From NCBI RefSeq assembly GCF_009914755.1, contig NC_060935.1: 64,000 nt of DNA; one strand, given 5' to 3'. Of the stretch, positions 25,190-63,434 are shown piece by piece. This DNA comes from the human T2T-CHM13v2.0 reference genome, Homo sapiens. Both the position numbers and the translations under genes were made by a program. The notes beneath the pieces were generated by a model. The model worked only from the letters and a program-made list of their open reading frames with translations, was not told the origin of the DNA and searched no databases. Position 1 is the stretch's first letter. Each line of letters begins with the position of its first letter.

Positions 25190-26172
25190 GTAGTTTTTAG
25201 ACGTGACACCAAAAGCACAATCCATAAAAGAACAAATTGATAAATTGGACTTTTTTAAAATTTAAAACTTCTGCTCTATGAAACAGACTTTTAAGAGATG
25301 GGAAGGTAAGGTACAGACCAGGAGAAAATATCTGCAAATCACATATCTGACAAAAGACTTGTATCTAGAATATATAATATAAAGAACTCTCAAAACTTAA
25401 CAGTAAGAAAACAAACAGCTCAATTAAAAAATGGACAAAAGACTTGAACAGACACTTCACCAGAGAAGATATACAGGTGGCAAATAAGCATGTGAAAAGA
25501 TGCTCAACTTCATTAGCCGTTAAGGATATGCAAATTAAGACCATGATGAGATGCCCCTATACATCTATTAGACTGACAATCCCAAGTGCTGGTGAGAATG
25601 CAGAACAATTGTAACTCTCATAGTTGTTAGTGGCAATGCAAGGTGATATAGCCAGTCTGGAAAATAGTTTAGCAGTTTCTCATAAATTTAAATATACCTA
25701 ACATATGGCCAAGCAGTCTTATTCTTAGAGAAATGAAAGGATGTTCACACAAAAGTTTGTCCACGAATATTTTTAGCAGCTCTGTTTATGATTGCCAAAA
25801 GCTGGAAAACAACCCACGCAGACTGTTTGGATAGATTATCTGTGATGCACCCATATAGTGGGATACTACACAGCAGTAAAAAAGAAGGAATTATTGATAA
25901 CATATAACAACTTGGTTAAATCTCAGCACCATTGTGCTGAGTGGAGGAAGCCCCTCCTAAAAGATTGTGTACTGTATGATTCCATTATATGACATTCTGG
26001 GAAAGACAGAATTAATGACAACAGATCAGTGGTTGCCAAGAGTTGGTTGGGGTTACAGGAGGGTATGACTGCAAAGGATGATGGTGGCGGTTACGTGACT
26101 CCATACATACATGTGTTAAAATTCATACAGCTGTATACCCAAGTTAATTTTACTGTAAATTAACTTTTTAAA
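25190..26172 (+). mobile_element. Old L1M 3' fragment
   Basis: Degenerate ORF2 3' end (ACACCAAAAGCACAA, AAATCACATATCTGACAAA, AGACACTTCACCAGAGAAGATATAC) plus 3'UTR. Confidence 0.8.
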
Positions 26173-26221: not shown

Positions 26222-28650
<2,429 letters not shown>

Positions 28651-28970
28651 AAAAACTTTCTTTAAAATTAAAAATTTCTAAAAAATATTTAAAAACTGTC
28701 TTTTAAAAATGAAATTTAAGAAACTTTCATTCTTAAAACTTTTTGGAACTCTTGGAGAATTGACTTTGGCACATTATTTCAAATGTCTTCAATTTTTTAT
28801 TCTCAATTGTGTATTCATCCTTAGAGAATGATTTTCTTTTTAAACTGAAAAGTTCATGGAAATAGGTTTGGTGATAAGGTAGGTGAAAGCTAGGTAACTT
28901 TATTGATGGTAAAAAGCAAGATGAGATTAAAAAATAATGTCAGTTTTCATTTATAGCAATTTTCTAGGGA

Positions 28971-29180
28971 CAGTTATATATCCCACAATGTTTCGATCAA
29001 CGCCAGACCACACATATGATGTTGATCAGAGCAGTAGTTTATATCATCTAGCCTAAGTGTGTAATATGCTATACTGCCCAGGTCTGTGTAAATACACATT
29101 GTGATGTTTGCACAAGAATGAAATAGCCTAATGATATGTTTCTCAGAATATATCCTCATTGTTAATGAAAGCATGGCTAT
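28971..29180 (+). mobile_element. Tigger-family (Tigger3/MER7-like) MITE
   Basis: AATGTTTCGATCAACGCCAGACCACACATATGA and GTTTCTCAGAATATATCCTCATTGTTAA motifs; degenerate TIRs. Confidence 0.65.
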
Positions 29181-29937
29181 ATTTGATGTAACCCTCCCAC
29201 TGAACACACCAAAAAATGCAGGGTACAGTATAAAAGCATTTGAAGTATTTTACCTTTTTGATGCTAGTGTAAACATTTTTTTAAAGATTCCTTAGGATTT
29301 TCTATGCATATGATCATGTTTTTGCAAGTAAAAATGGATTTACTTCTTTTCTAATCTGTATGCATTTTTATTCTTTTTCCTATTTTATTATGCTGTCTGG
29401 TACTTTAGTACAGTGTTAATTAGAAGTGGTGATAATGAGCATATTTGCTTTGTTTCCAGTCTTGGAGTAAAAATGGTCTTGTACCATTCAGTGTGATGGT
29501 AGCTGTAGATTTCTTGTAAATGTTCTTTATTCGATTGAGGAGGTTCCCTTCTTTTCCCTTGTGTTGAAAGATTTTACAAATTTTGTCATATGCTTTACAT
29601 AAAGAATTTTCATATAAAGAATTTTGTTAAATGCTTTATTCTACTGTGATGAATATATATTTTTTACTGTTTTATATTTGAATATATATTTTATTCTGTT
29701 AATATGAATATTCACCTTATTTATTAATATGGTGGGTTACATTGATTTATTTTGAAATGTTTAAGCTGGGTTTGATGTATAGTCTTTTTTATATATTACT
29801 GGATTCACCTTACTAATATTTTGTTTAGGATTTTTGTATCTGTGTTCATGAGGGATACTGGGCCTATAGTTTTCTTTACTTGTAATGTCTTTGTTGGTTT
29901 TGGTATGTAGTGATTCTGCCTCATAAAATGAGCTGGG

Positions 29938-30279
<342 letters not shown>

Positions 30280-30940
30280 TTAGATATTTGATAGGGTTAA
30301 CTAATTAAGTTATAGGGGTCTGAAATTTTTTATGAGAAAGATTTTCATTATGAATCAAATTTATTTAATAGATATTATGTTATTTATTACTTTTAAGATC
30401 CATTTTGATAATGTGTGTCTTTTAAGGTGTTTGTATATTTCACTTAAGTTGCTAATTTATTGACATAAAGTTGTTCAAAATATTCCCTTTTTATCCTTTC
30501 AAAATTTGTAGGCTTTTGGAGTGATGTCTCTTTTTTAAACCTGATATTCGTCATTGATACTTTTTCATTTTTCTTGATCAAACTGATCAAAGGTTTATCA
30601 CTTTTATTGACTTATTCTTTCTAGAGAGCCAGATTTCGGCTTCAATGATTTTCTGTATTGTTTCTCTGTTTTATAGTTAACGAATTCCTTCTATTTTTAT
30701 ATTCTTCTTCTTGTATCCACTTCGAGTTTAATTTTCTTTCTCTAGGTTATTAACGTGAAAGCTTAGATAACTTACTGTAGGCCCCCTTTTTTTGGTAATA
30801 TAAGCATTTAAAGCTACAAATTCCCTGTAAACACTGCTTAGGCTGCATACTAAGCTCTTTAAAACTGTTGTGCTGTTGCTTTCTGGCTTGCCTTATGTCT
30901 GATGAGAAGTCTGAGTGTATTCTTATCTTTGCTGCTTTGA

Positions 30941-31440
<500 letters not shown>

Positions 31441-31763
31441 TGATTTTTAGTGATTTGATTATGATATGTCTTGGTGTAGGATTTCGGGGCTTATCCTACT
31501 TGGGATCCATTAAACTTGTAGTTACTGTGAGTTTATAATTTTCGCCAACTTTGGAAGATTTTTGGTATAATTTCTTCAAATATTAAAAAAAACTTTTTTC
31601 CTTGTCTTCTGGAACTGCAATTATACATCTTCAGTCGTCTTCTCTCTGTGCTGCATTTTGGATACTTTTCCTTGTTGTTTCTTCAATTTAAATGGTCTCT
31701 TCTTCTATACTGTTTAATCTGCTGTTAATCTAATCTGGTGTAATTTGTATTTTAGAGATTGAT

Positions 31764-32039
31764 TTTTTTTTTTTCTCTTTTGAGACAGAGTCTCACTCTG
31801 GTGCCCAGGCTGGTGTGCAGTGGTGTGATCTTGGCTCACTGCAACTGCCTCCCAGGTTCAAGTGATTCTCCTGCCTCAGTCTCTCGAGCAGCTGAGATTA
31901 CAGGCATGGGCCACCATGCCCAGCTAATTTTTGTATTTTTAGTAGAGACGGGGTTTCACCACATTGGTCAGGGTGGTCTTGAACTCCTGACCTCAGGTGA
32001 TCTGCCTGCCTCGGCCTCCCAAAGTGCTGGGATTACAAG
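31764..32039 (-). mobile_element. AluSx-like, slightly 5'-truncated
   Basis: Reverse Alu; TSD GAGATTGA(T/C)TTTT. Confidence 0.9.
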
Positions 32040-33479
32040 GAGATTGACTTTTATCCGCAGATACTCTAACCTGATCTTTTGTCATATCTTCAATTTCTTT
32101 GCTCATTTTGTTAATGTTTTCCTTTAAATACTTATACATACTTATATTAGCTGTTTTAATGTCTTTTTCAGCTAATTTTGTCATCTTTATAGTTTCAAGA
32201 TCTGGTTCTTTTCTTCTGGCTATGGATCGCATTTTTCTTGCTTCTTGGCATGTTTAGTGAGTTTTGATTTGATAGTGGACTTTGTGAATGCACGTTGATG
32301 AGTATCTGGTATTTGTTGCCTGTCTTTAAAGACTATTGGATATTGTTTGGCAGGCGGTAAAGTTAATGTTGCTCAATTTGAGTCCTTTGAAGTCTGATTT
32401 TAGGCTTCTCTAGAGTGGTTCTGGTGTAGTCTTTATTCCAGATATAGTTCATCCCTACTTCTAAGGTGTGGCCCTCTGATATCTCCACTGAATAACCCAA
32501 GGGATCATCAAAGAGTCTCCGCTTTGGCTGATCAGAGTTTGAACATCTTCCTGCTACGTATAAACTCCAGTAATTGTTCAGTTTACAAATCTCCATTTTT
32601 TGCCTATCCTTGTCAAGTTTCCCTGTATACATTACTTGTCCTAGTACTCTGCAAAGACTCAGTGGGCCTCCTGTACAGATTTTTTGGAGCCCCCTTTTTT
32701 CTGGTTGGCTCACTTCTCTCTTGAAATGTGCCCACAACTGCCAGCTATCTCAGCCTCTCTGATCTCAAATTTCTGTCTCCTCAATTTAGCAAGGCTGCTG
32801 GGCTCTAAAACAAAGTGTTTTCCTCTCAGTGCCCATGATTGCAAAATTGCTGGGGTGATGGTGGGGCTCACCTTGTGTATTTGTTTTGTTTTGTTTTTTT
32901 CTCATATCTTGGCAATCACAGTCTTACTGTTCTCATTGTCCAAAGTCTGAGTACAGGTTACTTCATATATTTTGTTCACTTTTCTAGGTTTCTTTATTAT
33001 AGCAAGAAAGCAAGAGGTTAAGTGCAATCCTACTTATCCCATCATGCACAGAAGTAGAAGGCTCTACTTCATTTTTAACTTAACATATAGCCAACAAGGA
33101 GTAACCAGAATTTATAAGGGCTACCATTCAAGAAGAAAAAGAGAGAAACCCAGTAAAAACACAAAAATGGACAAATTGCTTAAACATGTACTTTATAAAA
33201 GAAGAACTCAAAATGGCCAGTAAACATGAAGAAATACACAACTTGATAATTATAGGGAAATACAAATTATTATCACTACAAGATATGTTTACACATTCAT
33301 CAGATTGGCAAAAGTTATGGAGTCTGATGATACCAAGTATTAGTAAGGATTAGAGCAACAGAAGCACTCATACCCTTCAGGGGAAAGTTTAACTGGTACA
33401 ACCATTTTGAAGATGAGTTAAGCATATCTTCAAAGCCAACAGTTCCACTTCCAGATATATGCTTTTGAGAATTGTTTAC

Positions 33480-33544
33480 ATATATATATATATATATACC
33501 CACACACATATATATACACACACACACACATATATATATATATA
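33480..33544. repeat. Compound (TA)n/(CA)n microsatellite in an old L1M 3' end (~33100-34030)
   Basis: Direct reading; a second (TA)n lies at 34044-34072. Confidence 0.9.
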
Positions 33545-34041
33545 CCTAGAGACATGTACAAGAATACTCATAGCAATATGTTTTTTTATAATAGCCCCAA
33601 ACTGGGAACAATCCAAATATCCAGCCATAGTAAAATAGATAAATTAATTGTAGTATGTTACTGTATTGGAATGTTATACAGCAATGAAAATGAACCTGTT
33701 GTAGCTTTCATAACAACATGGATGAAGCTTGTAAGTCTAATGTTAAGCAAAACAAATGATAGAGAATACGTATGATAGATTCCATTTGTACAAAGATTAA
33801 AAAATGTAAAGCTGAACTGTACTTTTTAGGGTTGCATACATTAGAGATAAAACTATAAAGAAAAGCAAAAAGTAATTATAACTGAAGTCAGGAAACTGTT
33901 CTTTTAGTGTGGGGATGTGGTGGAGCATAGCATGTGTCCGGGCAGTCTTCTAAGGTGCTGGCTCAGTTCTATATCTTGACTTAGGTAGTGGTTTCATGGA
34001 GGTTCATTTTATATTTATTCTTTACTCTTTACGAAAGAAGT

Positions 34042-34080
<39 letters not shown>

Positions 34081-34346
34081 TATGTGTTTTATATACTTCA
34101 GTCTTTATAATAAATCATAATATTTTCAGATATTCAGAGTTTAAAAATATGAGTCTCTTTTATATGGCTCTGAGGACAGTTTCAGAAAGGAAATTCTGAA
34201 AACATTTCAAGGCAATGCTATTGGAATAACTAATAATCTCCTGAGGAGACTATTTTGAAGATATAATTTCTGATACATTTATTTAAAAATCAGCTTTTTA
34301 AAAATTGTAGATAGGTAACTAAATTTGCTTATTAAGCACTAATTCA

Positions 34347-35176
<830 letters not shown>

Positions 35177-56061: not shown

Positions 56062-59000
56062 GTGTGTATGTTAATTTTTGCAAGGCTGGTTATTGTGTTT
56101 CTGATTTTATTTCTTATTTCTGTTGTTGGTTAGCTGGAGTCACAGATTTTTATCATGCTGTAAATATTACTTACCATATAACAGCATCCTGCGGGTGGAT
56201 GGGAGGAAAGGGCTCTGGTAGCATATTATTTGGCTGAAAGCAAGTTGCTCAACCCAGTAACTTGGTTGACTTGACAACTGGTGGAAAATAAATATCCTGG
56301 GTCACGTTTTAATTGTTATTTTTGGTGAATGATGGGGAGATTTTTGTAATCATTTCATAATTATTCAAGATTTTGTAATCATCTTGAAGCATTTTTGCTC
56401 ATTTTTCAGAAATTTTTTCCTTTTTCTAAATTTATTTTAAGCTAGTTATTTTTGCTGTCAGTCATTTTTAGTTGAGTTAAATTGTGAGAGATTATAAAAT
56501 AGTAAATATGGTATGGTTTTATTTTTAGGACAGTATTTATACATGATTATATATAGTTAATGGTTAAGAGTCAGACTGCTTGAATTCAAGTCAAGCTTTA
56601 CCACATGACAGTCTGACATTGAACAAGTTGCTATAAAATGAGGGTTAACTTGTGATAATGCCTGCCTCATGGTTAACACATATAAACACATAGAACTATA
56701 GCTGACACATAGTACTCAATAATCATATCACCCCCCATCTCTTCTTCTCTCTTTCCTTTCTCAGTCAAATGGCATCCAGTTCCTCAAATGAATATGGGTG
56801 TCATGCTTGGATTACTGTCATCCTCTCCTCACCTCCCACGTCCAACCCATTACCAAGTGTTCCCTACCTGCCTGTCTCCATCTCCACAACTCGCATCCTA
56901 GACCAAGTCTCCTCACTGGTCTCCTGACTTCTTATCCCCCTGGAGTTTACCCCCACTTAGCAATCAAGGGAGTCTTTTAAAAAGCAGATAAGTTCTTTCT
57001 TTTCTCCCTGCTTAAAGTGCTTTAGTAACTTTTTCTTGTACTCAGAACAAAATCCAGACTCCTTGCCTATGGGGTATGATGTGATTCATTCCCTCCCCAG
57101 CGACTTCCTCTCTTTCCCTTCTCCTCATTGCACTGTACCTTCTTTCTCACACATCAGGCTCATTCCCACCTGGGGCCTTGGCCCTTGCTTGGGTCTTTGT
57201 CTGAAGTGTTGTGACACCTTATCTTTTCATAGTTGGATATGTCATTCAGGCCTCAGTTCAGCTGTCACCTGCTTAGTGAGGCCGTTCCTGACTGATGCTG
57301 CTGCATCCCTGTTTTATTTTCTTGTAGCACTTAATCACTTTCCTGCAATGTAAAGCCCATAAAAGCAGGAAACTTGTCTCTGCTGTTAAACATTTTCATT
57401 CACTGAATGAAAGAAAAATGTAATGATGATGATCCATAGAAAAGAATCTAAAGGGAAATACAGGGTTGCTCTTTGCAGATTATGATTATGAGTATTCCTC
57501 TGTCTTTCTGTCGCTTGCCAGCATTCTCTGGCATAAGCATGCCCTGCTTTTGTCATAAGAGCAAATGAAGTATTAGAGGAATCTTACTACTGTATCACCC
57601 AAGAGCAGGACAATTGGCTGGAAATGAATTAGAATTTAAATGTAATGTGAAAACTCAAATTTCTGAAAAATAGCAAAATGCCTAAAATTGTCTGCTATTC
57701 AGACAACTTGTGACTTAGAGATATTTATTCACTTTCCACTAATTGGATTAACTTGGGCTCTAAATAAATTTTAAGCCAAATCACCAGGGATCAGAGTCAT
57801 CACTCCTTTTTCAGAGAGGAAGCAAGGGCTGGTAATATCTACTCCCCTAGGATAGGAACATTTGAGATTATGTTTGGTTGTTCGTTTATTGTAGTTGAAG
57901 CCTACATTATAAAAATGGACGCAATTCAAATGTGAGTCAAATGCATATGACAACTTTATTCATACATCCCTTATTTCTCATATTCCTCTATAGGGTCCCA
58001 ATTTCATGGAGGAAAGCAACTGTAAACTACTATTATTACAGGGCAGTTGCTTATTGATCTGGGCTGTTAACCTGACACCTGTCAGGAGTGGACATGTAGT
58101 GGTAGCAGGCTCTTGTAAATTAGTAGTTCATTGCATTACCTAATTGGTCAAATGCATTTTTTGCTGCAAGATCTCCGACAGACCATACCCTGGAGGTTGC
58201 AAGGGTTTCATTTGGCCTATTTTGGCAGCATGTTGAGCATCTAAAGTTTGGATTCTTTAGTTCTTCTCAAATATGAACTTACCATTATTATGGTTATGAT
58301 CCTGGTAGCTAATTTTTTTTAACCCTTCATACCTACTGTTAATCATTGTTTTTTCCTGGAATAAATTTTAAAATATATTCAGGTAAACTATATTCATGCA
58401 TAAGATGACTGTGGTGAGTATTTAGTGTAAAAGACATTTTCTTTTGAAACTGCAGTATTTTGGATAAATTACATGTGAACCTCAAGTCGCCTGTGACCCA
58501 AGTGAGATTGTTAGTGTTCTGAATACTAGTATCATTTTTAGCCTTTGTGTATCTTTTTATATGAAGTGTCTACTTCTCAAGCTGATTATAGGATGAATGT
58601 GCTTAAGGTTGTGTGCATCAGTATGCTTAACAAATATCATTTTAGTCTCTGGAAGAAAGCTTGCTAAATGTAAAGGTGAATCTCAAGTATATAAATTTTT
58701 GCATTATAGTGTATTTAAAAATATATGCCAAAAAAGAAATAAAAATATATATCTCATTAGAAATACAAAAGATCCATTGAAAACATATATTAAATCGTTG
58801 TGAATTAAATATTGTATGAGTTGGTTAGAAGAACTAGAACATACACTTCTTGAGAGTCGTTGTGCTTTAGTTTTCTCCTGTGTAAAATGGGGGGATGATG
58901 TTGCATAACTCTATTACCACATGGAAAGTGACACATAGTAAGCACTCAGTATGTGAAAGCTATTACTGTTGCTGCTGGTATTATTATTACTACCATTATT

Positions 59001-59071
59001 ATTTAGGGAAATTTAGAACTAAAATTAATACAAGTCATACTAATAACTTATATTTATCTTTTTTCTTTTAG

Positions 59072-59172
59072 GTTCTTGGTTGGGTATAAGAACCTTGTAT
59101 ACTTACCAACAGCCTTTCTGCTAAGTTCTGTTTTTTGGATATTTATGACTTGGTTCATCTTATTTTTTCCTG
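59072..59172 (+). CDS. ZDHHC13: ZDHHC13 exon 10 ([15 protein letters not shown]...FILFFP-D)
   Basis: Acceptor cttttAG|G; 101 nt; ends at the U12-type donor G|ATATCCTTT. Confidence 0.94.
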
Positions 59173-62100
59173 ATATCCTTTAAGCATCAATTTTGATGTG
59201 TATCTCATTTTGCCTTTAAAAGAGTAATGTTATTGTTAGGAATTTAGGTATTGGAAAAGGCCCAGGGAATGCAACTTATATTTGCATTCATTTAATGGTT
59301 CTGGATGAAGACGTTTAATGTTGAAAATCTACTTGATTCTAAAAGTAGTCTCAGAGTACATTATGGAAACAGTAAGTATCTAGTATTTATTACTCATAGG
59401 AGGGGAACAGTAGAATGTATTATTGTTTTACTTGTACCATAATTTGTTGGATTGTCTTGAGATTCCTTCAAGGTCAGATGGTTCTCATAATTTGGTCAGC
59501 AGTTACAGTTAATTAATACATTTTCTGAGTACTAAGACGGACTGCATGAAAGGGATATTGGGGAAAATATGGCTTCCTCAGTAACGGTAAGTGTTAGTGA
59601 TATTATCTAAGGCAATGATTCTCAATCCACGGTGAAAATAAATTTACTTTGCCACTCAACATATATGTAAAACAAAGACTGTACTCCTAATATATGCTTT
59701 ACTCTATGGTGTTATTTCATCCCATTTCCTTTTTAAAAAATTTTAATCATGGCCCATTTAATTCTTTCATGACTCACTAATGAATAGCAGCCTGAGATTA
59801 AAACAAAAACAAACAAACAAAAAAACTCATCCAAGGAATAGGTTTATTACTTAAGGATCAGGGCCCAGGACCAAGTCCAGCTTAGGGGTGTGTTGTTCTC
59901 TTAGTGTTGGCCAAGTCCTGTCACCTAGAAATGGGGAGAGGGGTTACTTGGGCTCTAACCATTTGTGACTTCAGGTAGGTGGAAGGCATTTTCAATCTTC
60001 CCACCTCTTGCCAGACTCCCTTCTCCCCTTCCAAGGACCCTGGGAAGCCCTGATGGCCTTGCTTTGCTTATGGAGTAGGAGAAGAAGGAATGTTGTAGAT
60101 AGAAATATACCTTTCAGTGTGTTCATTTAAACTTCCACATTACTTCTCTTTCTGGTAATAGCATTTCCGAAAAGGAAGAACAGAATGTTTATGGGAGACA
60201 TGCATAAACTGAATTCAAGAATATTTTTTCCATAGGAATAAATGTGAAATGAGATGGCCATAGGAGTTCTCAAAGTACATATGTCCACATCCATTATAGC
60301 ATGTTTTTCCTTTATGCTCCTTTTTATTTCTGAGCATTATCTCTAATTTAATTTTTCAGATTTCTTTAAATGAATGGCACAGCATACATTGGGGCCATTT
60401 GGCTTTTTTCAAAAGATTTTATTATCTCTTCTTTGTCTCATAATTACTGATTTGGTGGCAGTTTTTTAAGCACTAGCCTTATTACCACCACTTAATGAAG
60501 GCTTGGATGATATTATTATTATGATAGAAAAATACATGATTTTATAAGTAGTCATGAGTGCATCAAATAACAGCACAGGATACAACAAAATCACTTGCAG
60601 AAGACCTAACGCTCATAAATTCTAGGGTAATTGACATGACACTGAGGAAGGAAAGTTAGCTGATATTTTTGTTTACCAATCCATATGGCAGTGGAATAAA
60701 ACAGTTTTAAAAATGTGTTTTTTGATAAATTTTTAAAATTTGAGAAACATGTCAGATTTTGCACAAATATTGAATTATTTCAAATTTGTAGAATCAAAGT
60801 CATAAATGGTTACAACCCAAGTAACCCCTCTCCCCATTTCTAGGTGACAGGACTCGGCCAACACTAAGAGAACAACACACCCCTAAGCTGGACTTGGTCC
60901 TGGGCCCTGATCCTTAAGTAATAAACCTATTTTTTGGATGAGTTTTTTTTGTTTGTTTTTGTTTTAATCTCAGACTGCTATTCGTTAGTGGGTCGTGGAA
61001 GAATTAAATGGGCCGTGATTAAAATTAACAAAAGAGAACTGATTTCCATAGCTAGACAGAATCTTAAGATGTTGGAATCAACAAGATGGATGATTTTATT
61101 TGCTTGTACAACCTAAAGCCCTTTGTTCTAGGCAACCATATGAACCTGCTACTTGTGAGGGCATATAAGTCAGTAGGTGGCATACTTCACCATCAGAATA
61201 ATGTTCTTCAAACTAAATTTTAAATCTTGGAACTGCCTTGTGGATGAACTGAGATGCCGCCCTGGGTTTTAGGCTAGCTTTGTCTCAGGCTGCCGTCTGG
61301 ATTGAATAAGGGCATCTGCTTCCGCAGATACTGGCCTATTAGGGGAAGACATTCTGGGGCACTATGGAAGAAGACAAAACGATTTTGAGTTTTAGCTCTT
61401 TTCAGACTAGTTATGCACCATTGGGGCAAGGTACATAATTTCACCAAGCCTTAGTTTTTCTGTAAATTGGAGATAACAGAAACAAGCTCATGGTGTGGCT
61501 GCAAGGATTACTATAAAGTGCTCACCACAGTCCCCATGGCAAAATTGGCATTCTATAAATATACCTAATATTTTATTATTAATTATTCTTATGAATAAAA
61601 TTGATGTGGAAGGCTGCATGTTTAAACTAATTTCAAGGGCAATTCTAGGTTGGCTTCTCAGATGATCAGTTTCTTTTGGTACCTTTTATAAGTTCAGCAA
61701 GTAATGTCTGGCTTGTGCGAGGGGGGATTGAATACAATAAAATGGAACCTTATTGATGAGTTTGAAGGTAAAATTCAAACTCAGGAGAGAAATGGTGAAT
61801 CACTGAATATTACATTTGTGATATTGGCTGTAACTAACTGAGTTAAGTTTAAGAGGGATAAATACATGTAAAGTCCCATACTGAGTTTCAGAAAATCAGT
61901 TATACAAGTGCATGTTATGGTGAGCTATGACATAGCTTCTGGTCAAGTGCAAAGGAACGAGGCGCTGTGACTAAATGCTCAGTGTGGCTAGTGATGCAGC
62001 TGTCAAGAAAGCAAGTATATTCTCACATAGTATTACAAGGATTTGAGTGTCCAAGCAAAAGACAACAGCAGCTTCTCTGTCCTCTACACTGGTGTTTGCT

Positions 62101-63434
62101 CTGTTTTGAATTATATCCTTTTAAAAGAGAGAATGACAAATGGGAGCATGAACAGAGGAACATGACCAGGAAAATGTTATATAAGGACAGTGTTGCTGTT
62201 TATCTTGGAGGTATGATCACTGTCTTCCAATTTCAAGTGTTTGGAAGTCTATCATTTGGAAGCCAATGCACTATGTAGAATGGGCACTCAGTAAAAATGT
62301 ATTGAACCAATGAGGGGATAAGCTTATGTAGGTTAGATCTAAAAGACAGCTACTGTGCAGATCTAAAGGATCTAATGAATGAAAATCAGTTGGTTGAAGT
62401 TATAGAAAGGCAAATTTTAGCTCCATATTGAGAGACTTAACTGCAAAAGTGTTACCAGCTTACTGGGAAGGCTGTGTGTCTATAAACTATAGTCCACATC
62501 TGAGTGCCATAGATAAAGCATTCTTAAATTCAGGGAAGGGAGAGTATGATTCTCTCCAGGGAATCAGAAAAGATTGCAAGGAAGGAGGGAAAATATAAGT
62601 TAGGTTTTAATCGCAGTTAAGACTTGGACACCCTAAAAGTGTGGTTTTAGAAGAAAATGAGAGGAAGTAGGGGACATTTTAGGTCAGTGAACCACACAGG
62701 CAAGAGCACCAAAGCAAGGAGTGTCTTCAGCTTCTATGTGAGGTGATAGGGTGTAATTCACTTTACTTGGAGAGTGGTGATCCAATGATTCCCCTGCCAT
62801 TTGTTTTGTAAGTTAATCAAAATAGGAGCCGAAAATTCAGTCAGCTCAGCGTGCAGGATCATTGCATTATGAAACTGAACGTATTTTTGAGAACTGAACG
62901 TATATATTTTGAGTCGTGTGTCGATCAGGATTTCATAAAGAAATTATGATGTGATTCTTTCACAAAGGATCTTGCCCTATGTACCTTTAATAGTGTCTTT
63001 CTGCAAACATGTATCTAATATATAGGGAAATACTTTTATTTGGAATCTCTGAATCAAGAGGGTTGTTTCTTTGAATGATTTTGTTAAAATGATCAAAGAA
63101 TATTTTTCTAGATGCTCACAGGAGAGCCACAATTACACCATTAGAGATAAATTTATTTGGTCTTGAGTGTCACTTTTCAGGATGTTCCTCATAAGTTGCA
63201 ACTATTCCTATCAAGTATTTAATATGAGCTTCAACTAATAAGGAAACATTAATTATTAGCCAAGTGGGAACAAATTCCAGTAGGATTAGAACATAGGATG
63301 GGAAGAGATTTAGGGGCAGGGACATGTGTGCATAAGGAAGGTGAGATTCTTAGGTGCCAATGATGAAATTTGCTTACATCATAATTACATTATTTTTAAA
63401 GGAAGTTTGGTGTATTCCTTAACTTGGCTTTAAC
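59173..63434 (+). other. ZDHHC13: U12-type (minor spliceosome) AT-AC intron 10
   Basis: 5'ss ATATCCTTT at 59173; branch point TTCCTTAAC at 63415-63423; terminal AC at 63433-63434; joining gives in-frame G|AT (Asp) followed by LAGAPFYF. Confidence 0.95.
59739..61026. repeat. Inverted duplication: arms 59739-59971 and 60797-61026, 825-bp spacer
   Basis: Manual reverse-complement alignment: 12 substitutions plus one small indel in an (AAAC)n run over ~230 bp; 76-bp perfect core at 59837-59912. Confidence 0.95.

What the first reader, a model, noticed from the sequence alone, without database searches (positions are those of the whole stretch)
59739..61026. Non-Alu ~230-bp inverted duplication inside the minor (U12) intron: long pre-mRNA dsRNA stem or inversion substrate
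Seen: 59739-59971 is the reverse complement of 60797-61026 (825-bp loop), with 12 substitutions, one small microsatellite indel, and perfect runs of 76 and 39 bp. In the sense transcript 8 of the 12 substitutions become G.U pairs, 3 are A.C and 1 is C.C, so the stem is almost unbroken. The arms are not Alu or L1. They appear to span the end of an old DNA-transposon remnant and flanking unique sequence, which suggests a local inverted duplication rather than transposon TIRs. Established: minor introns are excised slowly and often retained, and long stems are ADAR substrates. Inference: the stem could be a persistent editing or nuclear-retention element, could modulate intron 10 splicing by looping out ~1.3 kb, or the arms could be homogenised by gene conversion or recurrent inversion of the spacer. 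Caveat: several G.U-compatible changes are simple CpG decay and 8 of 11 transitions is not statistically compelling.
Basis: partly seen in the sequence, partly recalled or inferred. Interest (0 to 1): 0.8.

Follow-up and report, generated by a model that had tools for sequence, protein, structure and literature searches.

The report
Local inverted duplication in ZDHHC13 intron
About 230 bases of otherwise single-copy DNA were copied backwards some 800 bases away inside a slowly spliced intron of the human ZDHHC13 gene, so the RNA can fold into a long double-stranded stem, but nothing found here shows that the stem has a job.

Summary
Window 59739-59971 is the reverse complement of 60797-61026, with an 825-nt spacer, 12 substitutions, one 3-bp microsatellite indel and perfect runs of 76 and 39 bp. 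It lies in a genuine AT-AC U12 intron.

Whole-genome searches find each arm only as the two arms, while two control repeats from the same window gave 6,174 and 7,775 candidates. An old dispersed repeat lies in the spacer, but its other copies have no arm-like flanks and no inverted repeats. So the arms are neither TIRs nor independent copies of a repeat family. The structure is a local inverted duplication of unique intronic DNA. If there was no gene conversion, it is roughly 12-41 My old.

The sense RNA is predicted to form a stem of about 225 bp (-404 kcal/mol), but the antisense stem is nearly as stable (-390). The G.U excess (8 of 11, p=0.23) and the mismatch clustering (p=0.06-0.10) are not significant.

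Editing, splicing effects and spacer inversion could not be tested here, and no paper found mentions this structure. Non-repetitive intronic dsRNAs are a catalogued class. The most likely reading is a neutral relic and a probable nuclear ADAR substrate. It is real but ordinary.

The parts
59739..59971 (+). Left arm of the inverted repeat (233 nt); contains no CpG
60797..61026 (-). Right arm (230 nt), reverse complement of the left arm; keeps 4 CpGs where the left arm has TG or CA
59972..60796 (.). 825-nt spacer (the loop of the predicted RNA hairpin)
60212..60690 (.). Old dispersed repeat inside the spacer: 61-64% identity over 409-490 bp to loci on contigs C18 and C4. It does not reach either arm.
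59800..59825 (+). A-rich (AAAC)n-type microsatellite inside the left arm. Its partner in the right arm is 60943-60965, and the single 3-bp indel lies here. It is the only part of the arm that matches elsewhere in the genome.
59173..63434 (+). ZDHHC13 intron 10, an AT-AC U12-type intron of 4262 nt. 5' splice site ATATCCTTT at 59173-59181, branch site TTCCTTAAC at 63415-63423, terminal AC at 63433-63434. The left arm starts 566 nt after the 5' splice site and the right arm ends 2408 nt before the 3' splice site.
   Evidence: hub annotation for the exon ends

Best explanation
This is a single, local, non-transposon inverted duplication. About 230 bp of otherwise single-copy intronic DNA was copied in reverse orientation about 0.8 kb away. 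The most likely cause is a replication- or repair-associated switch to the opposite strand as template, which is a larger version of the template-switch events known to create inverted repeats in one step. The event happened in the primate lineage. The arm divergence (K2P 0.055) gives about 23-27 My at an assumed 1.0-1.2e-9 per site per year, with a Poisson range of 12-41 My, if no gene conversion occurred. Since then the arms have decayed as neutral DNA does: 11 transitions (4 of them at CpG), 1 transversion and 1 microsatellite slip. Because ZDHHC13 is read from the + strand, the pre-mRNA should fold the arms into a stem of about 225 bp as soon as the right arm is transcribed, about 2.4 kb before the 3' splice site exists. 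Such a stem is expected to be promiscuously A-to-I edited by nuclear ADARs and discarded with the intron. Shown here: the repeat, its uniqueness in the genome, the lack of family or TIR features, the predicted fold and the U12 nature of the intron. Inferred: the mechanism of origin, the age, the editing and the lack of a selected function.
For: Exact anatomy. Uniqueness in the whole 3.1-Gb assembly: the left arm gave 7 candidates, all 7 scored, of which 2 are the arms and 5 cover only the A-rich tract (query 56-118). The inner 146 nt gave 2 of 2 candidates, both arms. The right arm gave 2 of 2. The flanks 59200-59805 and 60960-61700 matched only themselves and the other arm's outer end. Positive controls with the same tool: masked repeats 27382-27661 and 25317-25515 gave 6,174 and 7,775 first-look candidates, with the 40 scored in each case at 87-100% and 79-100% identity including the self-match. 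The tool also picked up 71% matches for the spacer. The homology ends sharply at both arm ends. Other copies of the spacer repeat (L011, L012) score at the shuffled-null level against the arm parts (12-16 against null means of 13.7-14.5), while the spacer repeat itself scores 120 and 90 against a null of about 23. They also contain 0 inverted repeats of 25 nt or more. The substitution pattern fits neutral decay: G.U 8 of 11 p=0.23, longest perfect run of 76 or more p=0.064, 6 or more events in a terminal 53 columns p=0.10. The minimum-free-energy fold of 59700-61070 pairs the arms end to end (-601.6 kcal/mol), and the sense duplex is -404.0 kcal/mol with 225 pairs. Literature: template switching creates new inverted repeats and hairpins in one step in human and chimp genomes (PMC5453318, passages). 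Non-repetitive predicted dsRNAs occur at about 2 per Mb, and 96% of dsRNAs in protein-coding genes are intronic (PMC11838218, section 9).
Against: No outgroup genome could be searched, so the derived state, the age and which arm is the copy are not shown. The template-switch events documented in PMC5453318 are short (the filter mentioned is 14 bp or more, and the examples are tens of bp), whereas this copy is 230 bp and lies 825 bp from its source. No microhomology is readable at the junctions (read), although that is expected after about 25 My. The genome search skips very common words and scores only the best candidates, so a very old family more than about 35% diverged could be missed. The outer 53 columns carry 6 of the 12 substitutions (post-hoc Fisher p=0.034; p=0.10 when either end is allowed). 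That leaves room for partial homogenisation of the inner part. A lack of function is inferred from the absence of evidence for one, not shown.
Confidence: 0.7

Rival explanations
1. The inverted repeat is older than its 5% divergence suggests, and its arms are kept alike by gene conversion, template switching between the arms, or recurrent inversion of the spacer.
For: There is a 76-bp perfect run and a lower difference density in the inner 177 columns (6 substitutions) than in the outer 53 (6 substitutions); post-hoc Fisher p=0.034. All 4 CpG differences are retained in the right arm and lost in the left. Template switching is reported to convert near-perfect inverted repeats into perfect ones and to invert spacers (PMC5453318, passages).
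Against: Corrected for the choice of partition, the clustering is not significant (p=0.064 and p=0.10). Three of the 6 outer differences are CpG transitions. The longest perfect tract is 76 bp, which is short for efficient homologous exchange (recalled knowledge). The strand-composition skew of the spacer is unremarkable (45th-47th percentile of 354 background windows), though that test has almost no power at 825 bp. Four of 4 CpG losses in one arm has a chance of 1 in 8.
Confidence: 0.12
2. The stem is a selected RNA element of the minor intron. It could be an ADAR-dependent editing or retention signal, a device that shortens the effective intron, or a mask for the splice-site-like pair inside the left arm.
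For: The stem is predicted to be very stable, with up to 92 uninterrupted pairs in the sense RNA. It lies in a U12 intron, and retention of the U12-dependent intron in mouse Zdhhc13 was validated as increased in SMA mice (PMC5224493, passages). A donor-like CAG|GTAGGT sits at 59972-59980, directly at the inner edge of the left arm. It is 1 of only 2 strict matches in 46 kb and has an acceptor-like site 70 nt upstream inside the arm.
Against: There is no strand-specific signal of maintained pairing: G.U against A.C is 8 of 11 (p=0.23) and the antisense duplex is only 14 kcal/mol weaker out of about 400. The arms are 566 nt and 2408 nt from the splice sites and do not touch the branch site. No RefSeq transcript has an exon here (hub annotation). 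About 1.4 strict donor matches are expected by chance in 46 kb (own arithmetic on the pattern). No paper links ZDHHC13 to editing or dsRNA. If the repeat is primate-specific, the mouse intron-retention data cannot involve it.
Confidence: 0.1
3. The 1,288-bp structure is one insertion of a non-autonomous DNA transposon with about 230-bp TIRs, of which this is the only surviving or recognisable copy.
For: The architecture looks like a MITE, with long terminal inverted repeats and sharp outer ends. A TTAA (which contains TA) sits just inside each outer end (59743-59746 and 61019-61022), so a TTAA or TA target-site duplication cannot be excluded.
Against: No other copy of the arms exists in the genome, although the same search recovers thousands of candidates for real repeats (against 25, 26). 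The copies of the spacer repeat elsewhere lack arm-like flanks and inverted repeats. TTAA is palindromic and is simply part of the inverted repeat, which runs 4 bases further out. The 8-bp flanks outside the repeat match at only 3 of 8 positions (read). Arm divergence of 5% would date an insertion at about 25 My, whereas earlier work found no DNA-transposon activity in anthropoids in the last 37 Myr (abstract of PMC2997546 in the listing; the primary paper was not held).
Confidence: 0.06

Closest known systems
Non-repetitive intronic dsRNAs predicted genome-wide (dsRNAscan; Andrews and Bass, PMC11838218)
   Same: It is an intramolecular, intronic, highly paired stem formed by sequence that is not an interspersed repeat. 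That class is reported at about 2 per Mb, and 96% of the genic dsRNAs are intronic (section 9).
   Different: I could not see their tables or the web resource, so I do not know whether this stem is listed. At about 225 bp it is below their 'long' cut-off of 300 bp (section 10).
Long, nearly perfect inverted duplicated sequences in pre-mRNAs (Barak et al. 2020, PMC7006430)
   Same: It is a plus/minus self-match within one pre-mRNA, is intronic, and is expected to be edited if expressed (passages).
   Different: Their critical class is over 300 bp and over 96% identity (197 human cases). This one is 233 bp at 94.8% identity, so it falls in the more common, less constrained class.
Inverted Alu pairs, the main human ADAR substrates
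   Same: Two inverted copies within about 1 kb in an intron are predicted to form a dsRNA of 200-300 bp.
   Different: The arms are not Alu, since there is no dispersed family. They are much more alike (about 95%) than the other inverted pairs in this window (72-83%).
Template-switch ('four-point model') inverted repeats (Loytynoja and Goldman 2017, PMC5453318)
   Same: A reverse-complement copy of nearby unique sequence creates a hairpin in one mutational step (passages).
   Different: The scale differs, at 230 bp copied across 825 bp against tens of bp at short range. The event itself cannot be reconstructed without an outgroup.
MITE or DNA-transposon terminal inverted repeats
   Same: Long inverted termini bracket about 0.8 kb.
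   Different: It is single-copy, has no demonstrable target-site duplication, and is younger than the reported end of DNA-transposon activity in anthropoids.

Membership tests
DNA transposon or MITE with TIRs | Terminal inverted repeats with sharp outer ends | tested here: met
   Arms 59739-59971 and 60797-61026; no homology beyond them. This feature is shared with any inverted duplication.
DNA transposon or MITE with TIRs | Target-site duplication directly flanking the TIRs | tested here: inconclusive
   The 8-bp flanks outside the repeat match at 3 of 8 positions. A TTAA (and the TA inside it) lies within each end, but it is palindromic and so cannot be told apart from the inverted repeat itself (read).
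DNA transposon or MITE with TIRs | Other copies of the element or its TIRs in the genome | tested here: not met
   Only the two arms match. The controls gave 6,174 and 7,775 candidates. Copies of the spacer repeat lack arm-like flanks and inverted repeats.
Inverted Alu (IRAlu) dsRNA | Both arms are Alu elements | tested here: not met
   There is no dispersed family for the arms. One short match to an Alu tail covers only the A-rich tract. No repeat library (Dfam) was available.
Local template-switch inverted duplication | Reverse-complement copy of nearby, otherwise unique sequence | tested here: met
Local template-switch inverted duplication | Derived state: one arm absent in outgroup species | not testable with these tools
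   No other eukaryotic genome is held; the genome search states that G000 has no relatives here.
Local template-switch inverted duplication | Short range and short copied fragment (tens of bp), as in the documented events | tested here: not met
   230 bp copied 825 bp away, against events of tens of bp in PMC5453318. The mechanism is therefore an analogy, not a shown membership.
U12-type AT-AC intron | 5' splice site /ATATCCTT, branch site TCCTTAAC 10-15 nt from the 3' end, terminal AC | tested here: met
   59173 ATATCCTTT; 63415-63423 TTCCTTAAC, 11 nt before the end; AC at 63433-63434. The consensus motifs are recalled knowledge. PMC5224493 treats the mouse Zdhhc13 intron as U12-dependent.
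Long, near-perfect, potentially immunogenic dsRNA (over 300 bp, over 96%) | Stem longer than 300 bp | tested here: not met
   233 and 230 nt arms; thresholds from PMC7006430 and PMC11838218.
Long, near-perfect, potentially immunogenic dsRNA (over 300 bp, over 96%) | Over 96% identity or pairing | tested here: inconclusive
   DNA identity is 94.8% without the gap columns and 93.6% with them, both below 96%. Counting G.U pairs, 225 pairs over 233 nt is about 96.6%.
ADAR-edited dsRNA | A-to-G clusters in RNA reads on both arms | not testable with these tools
   No RNA-seq or REDIportal access. Literature searches found nothing on this locus.

The most novel reading that the evidence does not exclude
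The stem is a primate-specific regulatory dsRNA of a minor intron. Intron 10 is spliced slowly and its 3' splice site is transcribed 2.4 kb after the stem, so the roughly 225-bp helix would persist on the nascent RNA. There it could recruit ADAR or other dsRNA-binding proteins and hide the 70-nt out-of-frame pseudoexon (59905-59974) whose near-consensus donor sits at the foot of the helix. When minor splicing fails, as in SMN, RNU4ATAC or ZRSR2 defects, the retained intron would carry one of the rare non-Alu long dsRNAs into the pool seen by PKR, OAS or MDA5, linking minor-intron retention to innate immune signalling.
Probability: 0.05. Interest if true: 0.6.

Novelty: new member of a known kind. 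Interest (0 to 1): 0.25.

Why it matters
If the ordinary reading is right, this is one well-characterised example of how a long RNA hairpin arises in a single mutational step from unique DNA, without any transposon. It can serve as a clean, non-Alu, uniquely mappable probe for ADAR activity on a slowly spliced transcript. If it had a function, it would be a rare case of RNA structure acting on a minor intron. Nothing seen here raises that above speculation.

Tried and rejected
- Rfam on 59000-62000 at E up to 1 gave 3 matches, all far below their gathering scores (17.6-21.9 bits against 38-115). There is no known RNA family or miRNA here.
I ran the right arm as a single DNA query instead.
- The short chr3, chr19, chr6 and chr2 matches were aligned. 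They rest on the A-rich microsatellite, and one is an Alu tail, so they are not relatives of the arms.
- The G.U bias, the longest perfect run and the terminal clustering are all non-significant. A post-hoc Fisher test gives p=0.034, which I discount because the partition was chosen after seeing the data.
- The strand-skew test for a past spacer inversion was uninformative.
- I looked for microhomology and target-site duplications by eye and found none that is usable.
- Literature searches for ZDHHC13 with RNA editing or inverted repeat (where the 20 listed papers do not contain ZDHHC13), A-to-I (1 unrelated paper), ADAR (9 papers unrelated by title), minor intron and U12 with intron retention gave only PMC5224493, which does not mention the repeat.
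- Pace and Feschotte 2007 was not held.
- Which arm is the original could not be decided.

Full report
**1. The observation**

The inverted repeat exists exactly as described. The repeat finder reports two overlapping inverted pairs. A gapped alignment joins them into one repeat, 59739-59971 against 61026-60797. It has 12 mismatches (11 transitions and 1 transversion), one 3-bp gap in an (AAAC)n-type tract, and perfect runs of 76 and 39 bp, with 825 nt between the arms. In the + strand RNA the mismatches are 8 G.U, 3 A.C and 1 C.C.

A sensitive self-BLAST of 58500-62500 scores the pair at E=1e-80 and finds no weaker homology beyond either end of the arms. Among all inverted pairs of 120 nt or more within 5 kb in the 64-kb window it is the best of 6. 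The other 5 are 72-83% complementary.

The host intron, 59173-63434 by the hub's exon table, begins ATATCCTTT. It carries TTCCTTAAC 11 nt before its end and ends in AC. These are the hallmarks of an AT-AC U12-type intron; the consensus motifs are recalled knowledge. One paper treats the mouse Zdhhc13 intron as U12-dependent (PMC5224493, passages).

**2. What the arms are**

The window's own assembly (3.1 Gb, 24 contigs) could be searched. The results were:

| Query | First-look candidates (scored) | What matched |
|---|---|---|
| Left arm, 59739-59971 | 7 (7) | The 2 arms, plus 5 hits confined to query 56-118, the A-rich tract |
| Inner 146 nt, 59826-59971 | 2 (2) | The 2 arms |
| Right arm, 60797-61026 | 2 (2) | The 2 arms |
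| Left flank and outer arm end, 59200-59805 | 2 (2) | Itself and the other arm's outer end |
| Right flank and outer arm end, 60960-61700 | 2 (2) | Itself and the other arm's outer end |
| Spacer, 59972-60796 | 3 (3) | Itself and two 71% matches |
| Control repeat, 27382-27661 | 6,174 (40) | Copies at 87-100% identity, self-match included |
| Control repeat, 25317-25515 | 7,775 (40) | Copies at 79-100% identity, self-match included |

Aligned in full, the five short hits rest on the A-rich microsatellite, and one is an Alu tail.

The tool warns that it skips very common words, so I ran the two controls from masked stretches of the same window. They show that a family with copies at about 75% identity or more would have been seen. 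Because the arms are about 95% identical to each other, two independent copies of a repeat could only come from a young family. That possibility is now excluded.

**3. Is the whole 1.29 kb one old transposon?**

The spacer does contain an old dispersed repeat. Window 60212-60690 aligns at 61-64% over 409-490 bp to loci on contigs C18 and C4. Those two loci show no similarity to the outer or inner arm parts. Local alignment scores are 12-16 against shuffled-null means of 13.7-14.5, whereas the spacer repeat scores 120 and 90 against a null of about 23. Neither locus contains an inverted repeat of 25 nt or more (0 pairs each).

No target-site duplication is demonstrable. The 8-bp flanks match at 3 of 8 positions. 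The TTAA just inside each end is palindromic and is part of the inverted repeat (read).

The arm divergence would date an insertion to about 25 My. An abstract seen in a search listing states that earlier work found no DNA-transposon activity in anthropoids in the last 37 Myr (PMC2997546). The primary paper was not held. I therefore reject TIRs, with a residual probability of 0.06.

**4. Origin and age**

What remains is a local inverted duplication of unique intronic sequence. Löytynoja and Goldman describe template switching during replication as a one-step source of new inverted repeats and hairpins in human and chimp (PMC5453318, passages). Their events are tens of bp long, so I use this as a mechanistic analogy rather than a membership.

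The K2P distance between the arms is 0.055. At an assumed 1.0-1.2e-9 substitutions per site per year (recalled) this gives 23-27 My. The Poisson range for 12 substitutions gives about 12-41 My. This assumes no gene conversion and cannot be checked without outgroups, which the tools do not hold.

**5. Any sign of selection or homogenisation?**

None is significant.
- **G.U bias:** G.U against A.C among transitions is 8 of 11 (two-sided p=0.23). Without the 4 CpG sites it is 5 of 7 (p=0.45).
- **Strand preference:** the antisense duplex is almost as stable as the sense one, at -390.1 against -404.0 kcal/mol with 221 against 225 pairs. Perfect duplexes would be -442 to -448 kcal/mol.
- **Perfect run:** a run of 76 or more arises in 6.4% of random placements of the 13 events.
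- **Terminal clustering:** 6 or more events in either terminal 53 columns arises in 10% of random placements. The post-hoc Fisher test of the outer 53 columns against the rest gives p=0.034. I note this but discount it. Three of the six outer differences are CpG transitions.
- **CpG asymmetry:** all four CpG differences keep the CpG in the right arm (0 CpGs in the left arm, 4 in the right). The chance of such one-sidedness is 1 in 8.
- **Spacer inversion:** a strand-skew test for a past inversion had no power.

**6. What it probably does**

The minimum-free-energy fold of 59700-61070 pairs the arms from end to end (-601.6 kcal/mol). The sense stem has up to 92 uninterrupted pairs. The left arm starts 566 nt after the 5' splice site and the right arm ends 2408 nt before the 3' splice site. 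The helix can therefore form on the nascent RNA well before the intron can be removed.

By established knowledge of ADARs (recalled), a helix of this length is a promiscuous editing substrate. That is an inference here, because no RNA data could be consulted.

The stem does not touch the U12 5' splice site or the branch site. Looping out 1,288 of 4,262 nt is not an obvious regulatory device.

**7. Context**

Andrews and Bass predict about 5 million human dsRNAs. The non-repetitive ones are sparse, at about 2 per Mb, and 96% of those in protein-coding genes are intronic (PMC11838218, abstract and section 9). Their 'long, highly paired' class needs more than 300 bp and more than 96% pairing (section 10).

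Barak et al. count 197 human inverted duplicates over 300 bp and over 96% identity in RefSeq transcripts. They find that depletion of dsRNA is much weaker in pre-mRNA than in mRNA (PMC7006430, passages).

This stem, at 233 bp and 94.8% identity, falls below both thresholds. It belongs to a known and catalogued kind. Their supplementary tables and web resource, which I did not see, may already list it.

No paper found links ZDHHC13 to editing, dsRNA or this repeat.

**8. Verdict**

The arms are non-Alu and non-TIR, and the structure is a local inverted duplication. The functional ideas remain untested and have no support in the sequence statistics. The most likely reading is a neutral, primate-age relic that is probably edited and discarded with the intron. 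Interest is 0.25, and the novelty class is a new member of a known kind.

Noticed in passing
window 59905-59980: A splice-site-like pair lies inside the left arm. A pyrimidine-rich tract ending in TAG sits at 59904, and a near-consensus donor CAG|GTAGGT sits at 59972-59980, directly at the inner foot of the stem. Together they bound a 70-nt, out-of-frame pseudoexon. The donor is 1 of only 2 strict matches in 46 kb of the gene's + strand, where about 1.4 are expected by chance. No RefSeq exon is annotated here.
   Followed up: partly
window 60212-60690: An old dispersed repeat lies in the spacer, 61-64% identical over 409-490 bp to loci on contigs C18 (about 49.29 Mb) and C4 (about 60.11 Mb). 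The family is not named, because no repeat library was available.
   Followed up: partly
window 59739-59971 vs 60797-61026: There is a CpG asymmetry. The right arm keeps 4 CpGs and the left arm has none. All 4 CpG-type differences go the same way, which has a chance of 1 in 8.
   Followed up: yes
window 26472-35174: Five further inverted pairs of 149-184 nt at 72-83% complementarity lie in stretches that the hub lists as masked repeats. They are probably inverted SINE pairs that could also form dsRNA in ZDHHC13 intron 1.
   Followed up: no
L003 and L006 (contig C3, about 96.58 Mb and 90.28 Mb): These two loci were fetched only because of an A-rich match. They are 96% identical to each other over about 3 kb, which suggests a segmental duplication on that chromosome.
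   Followed up: no
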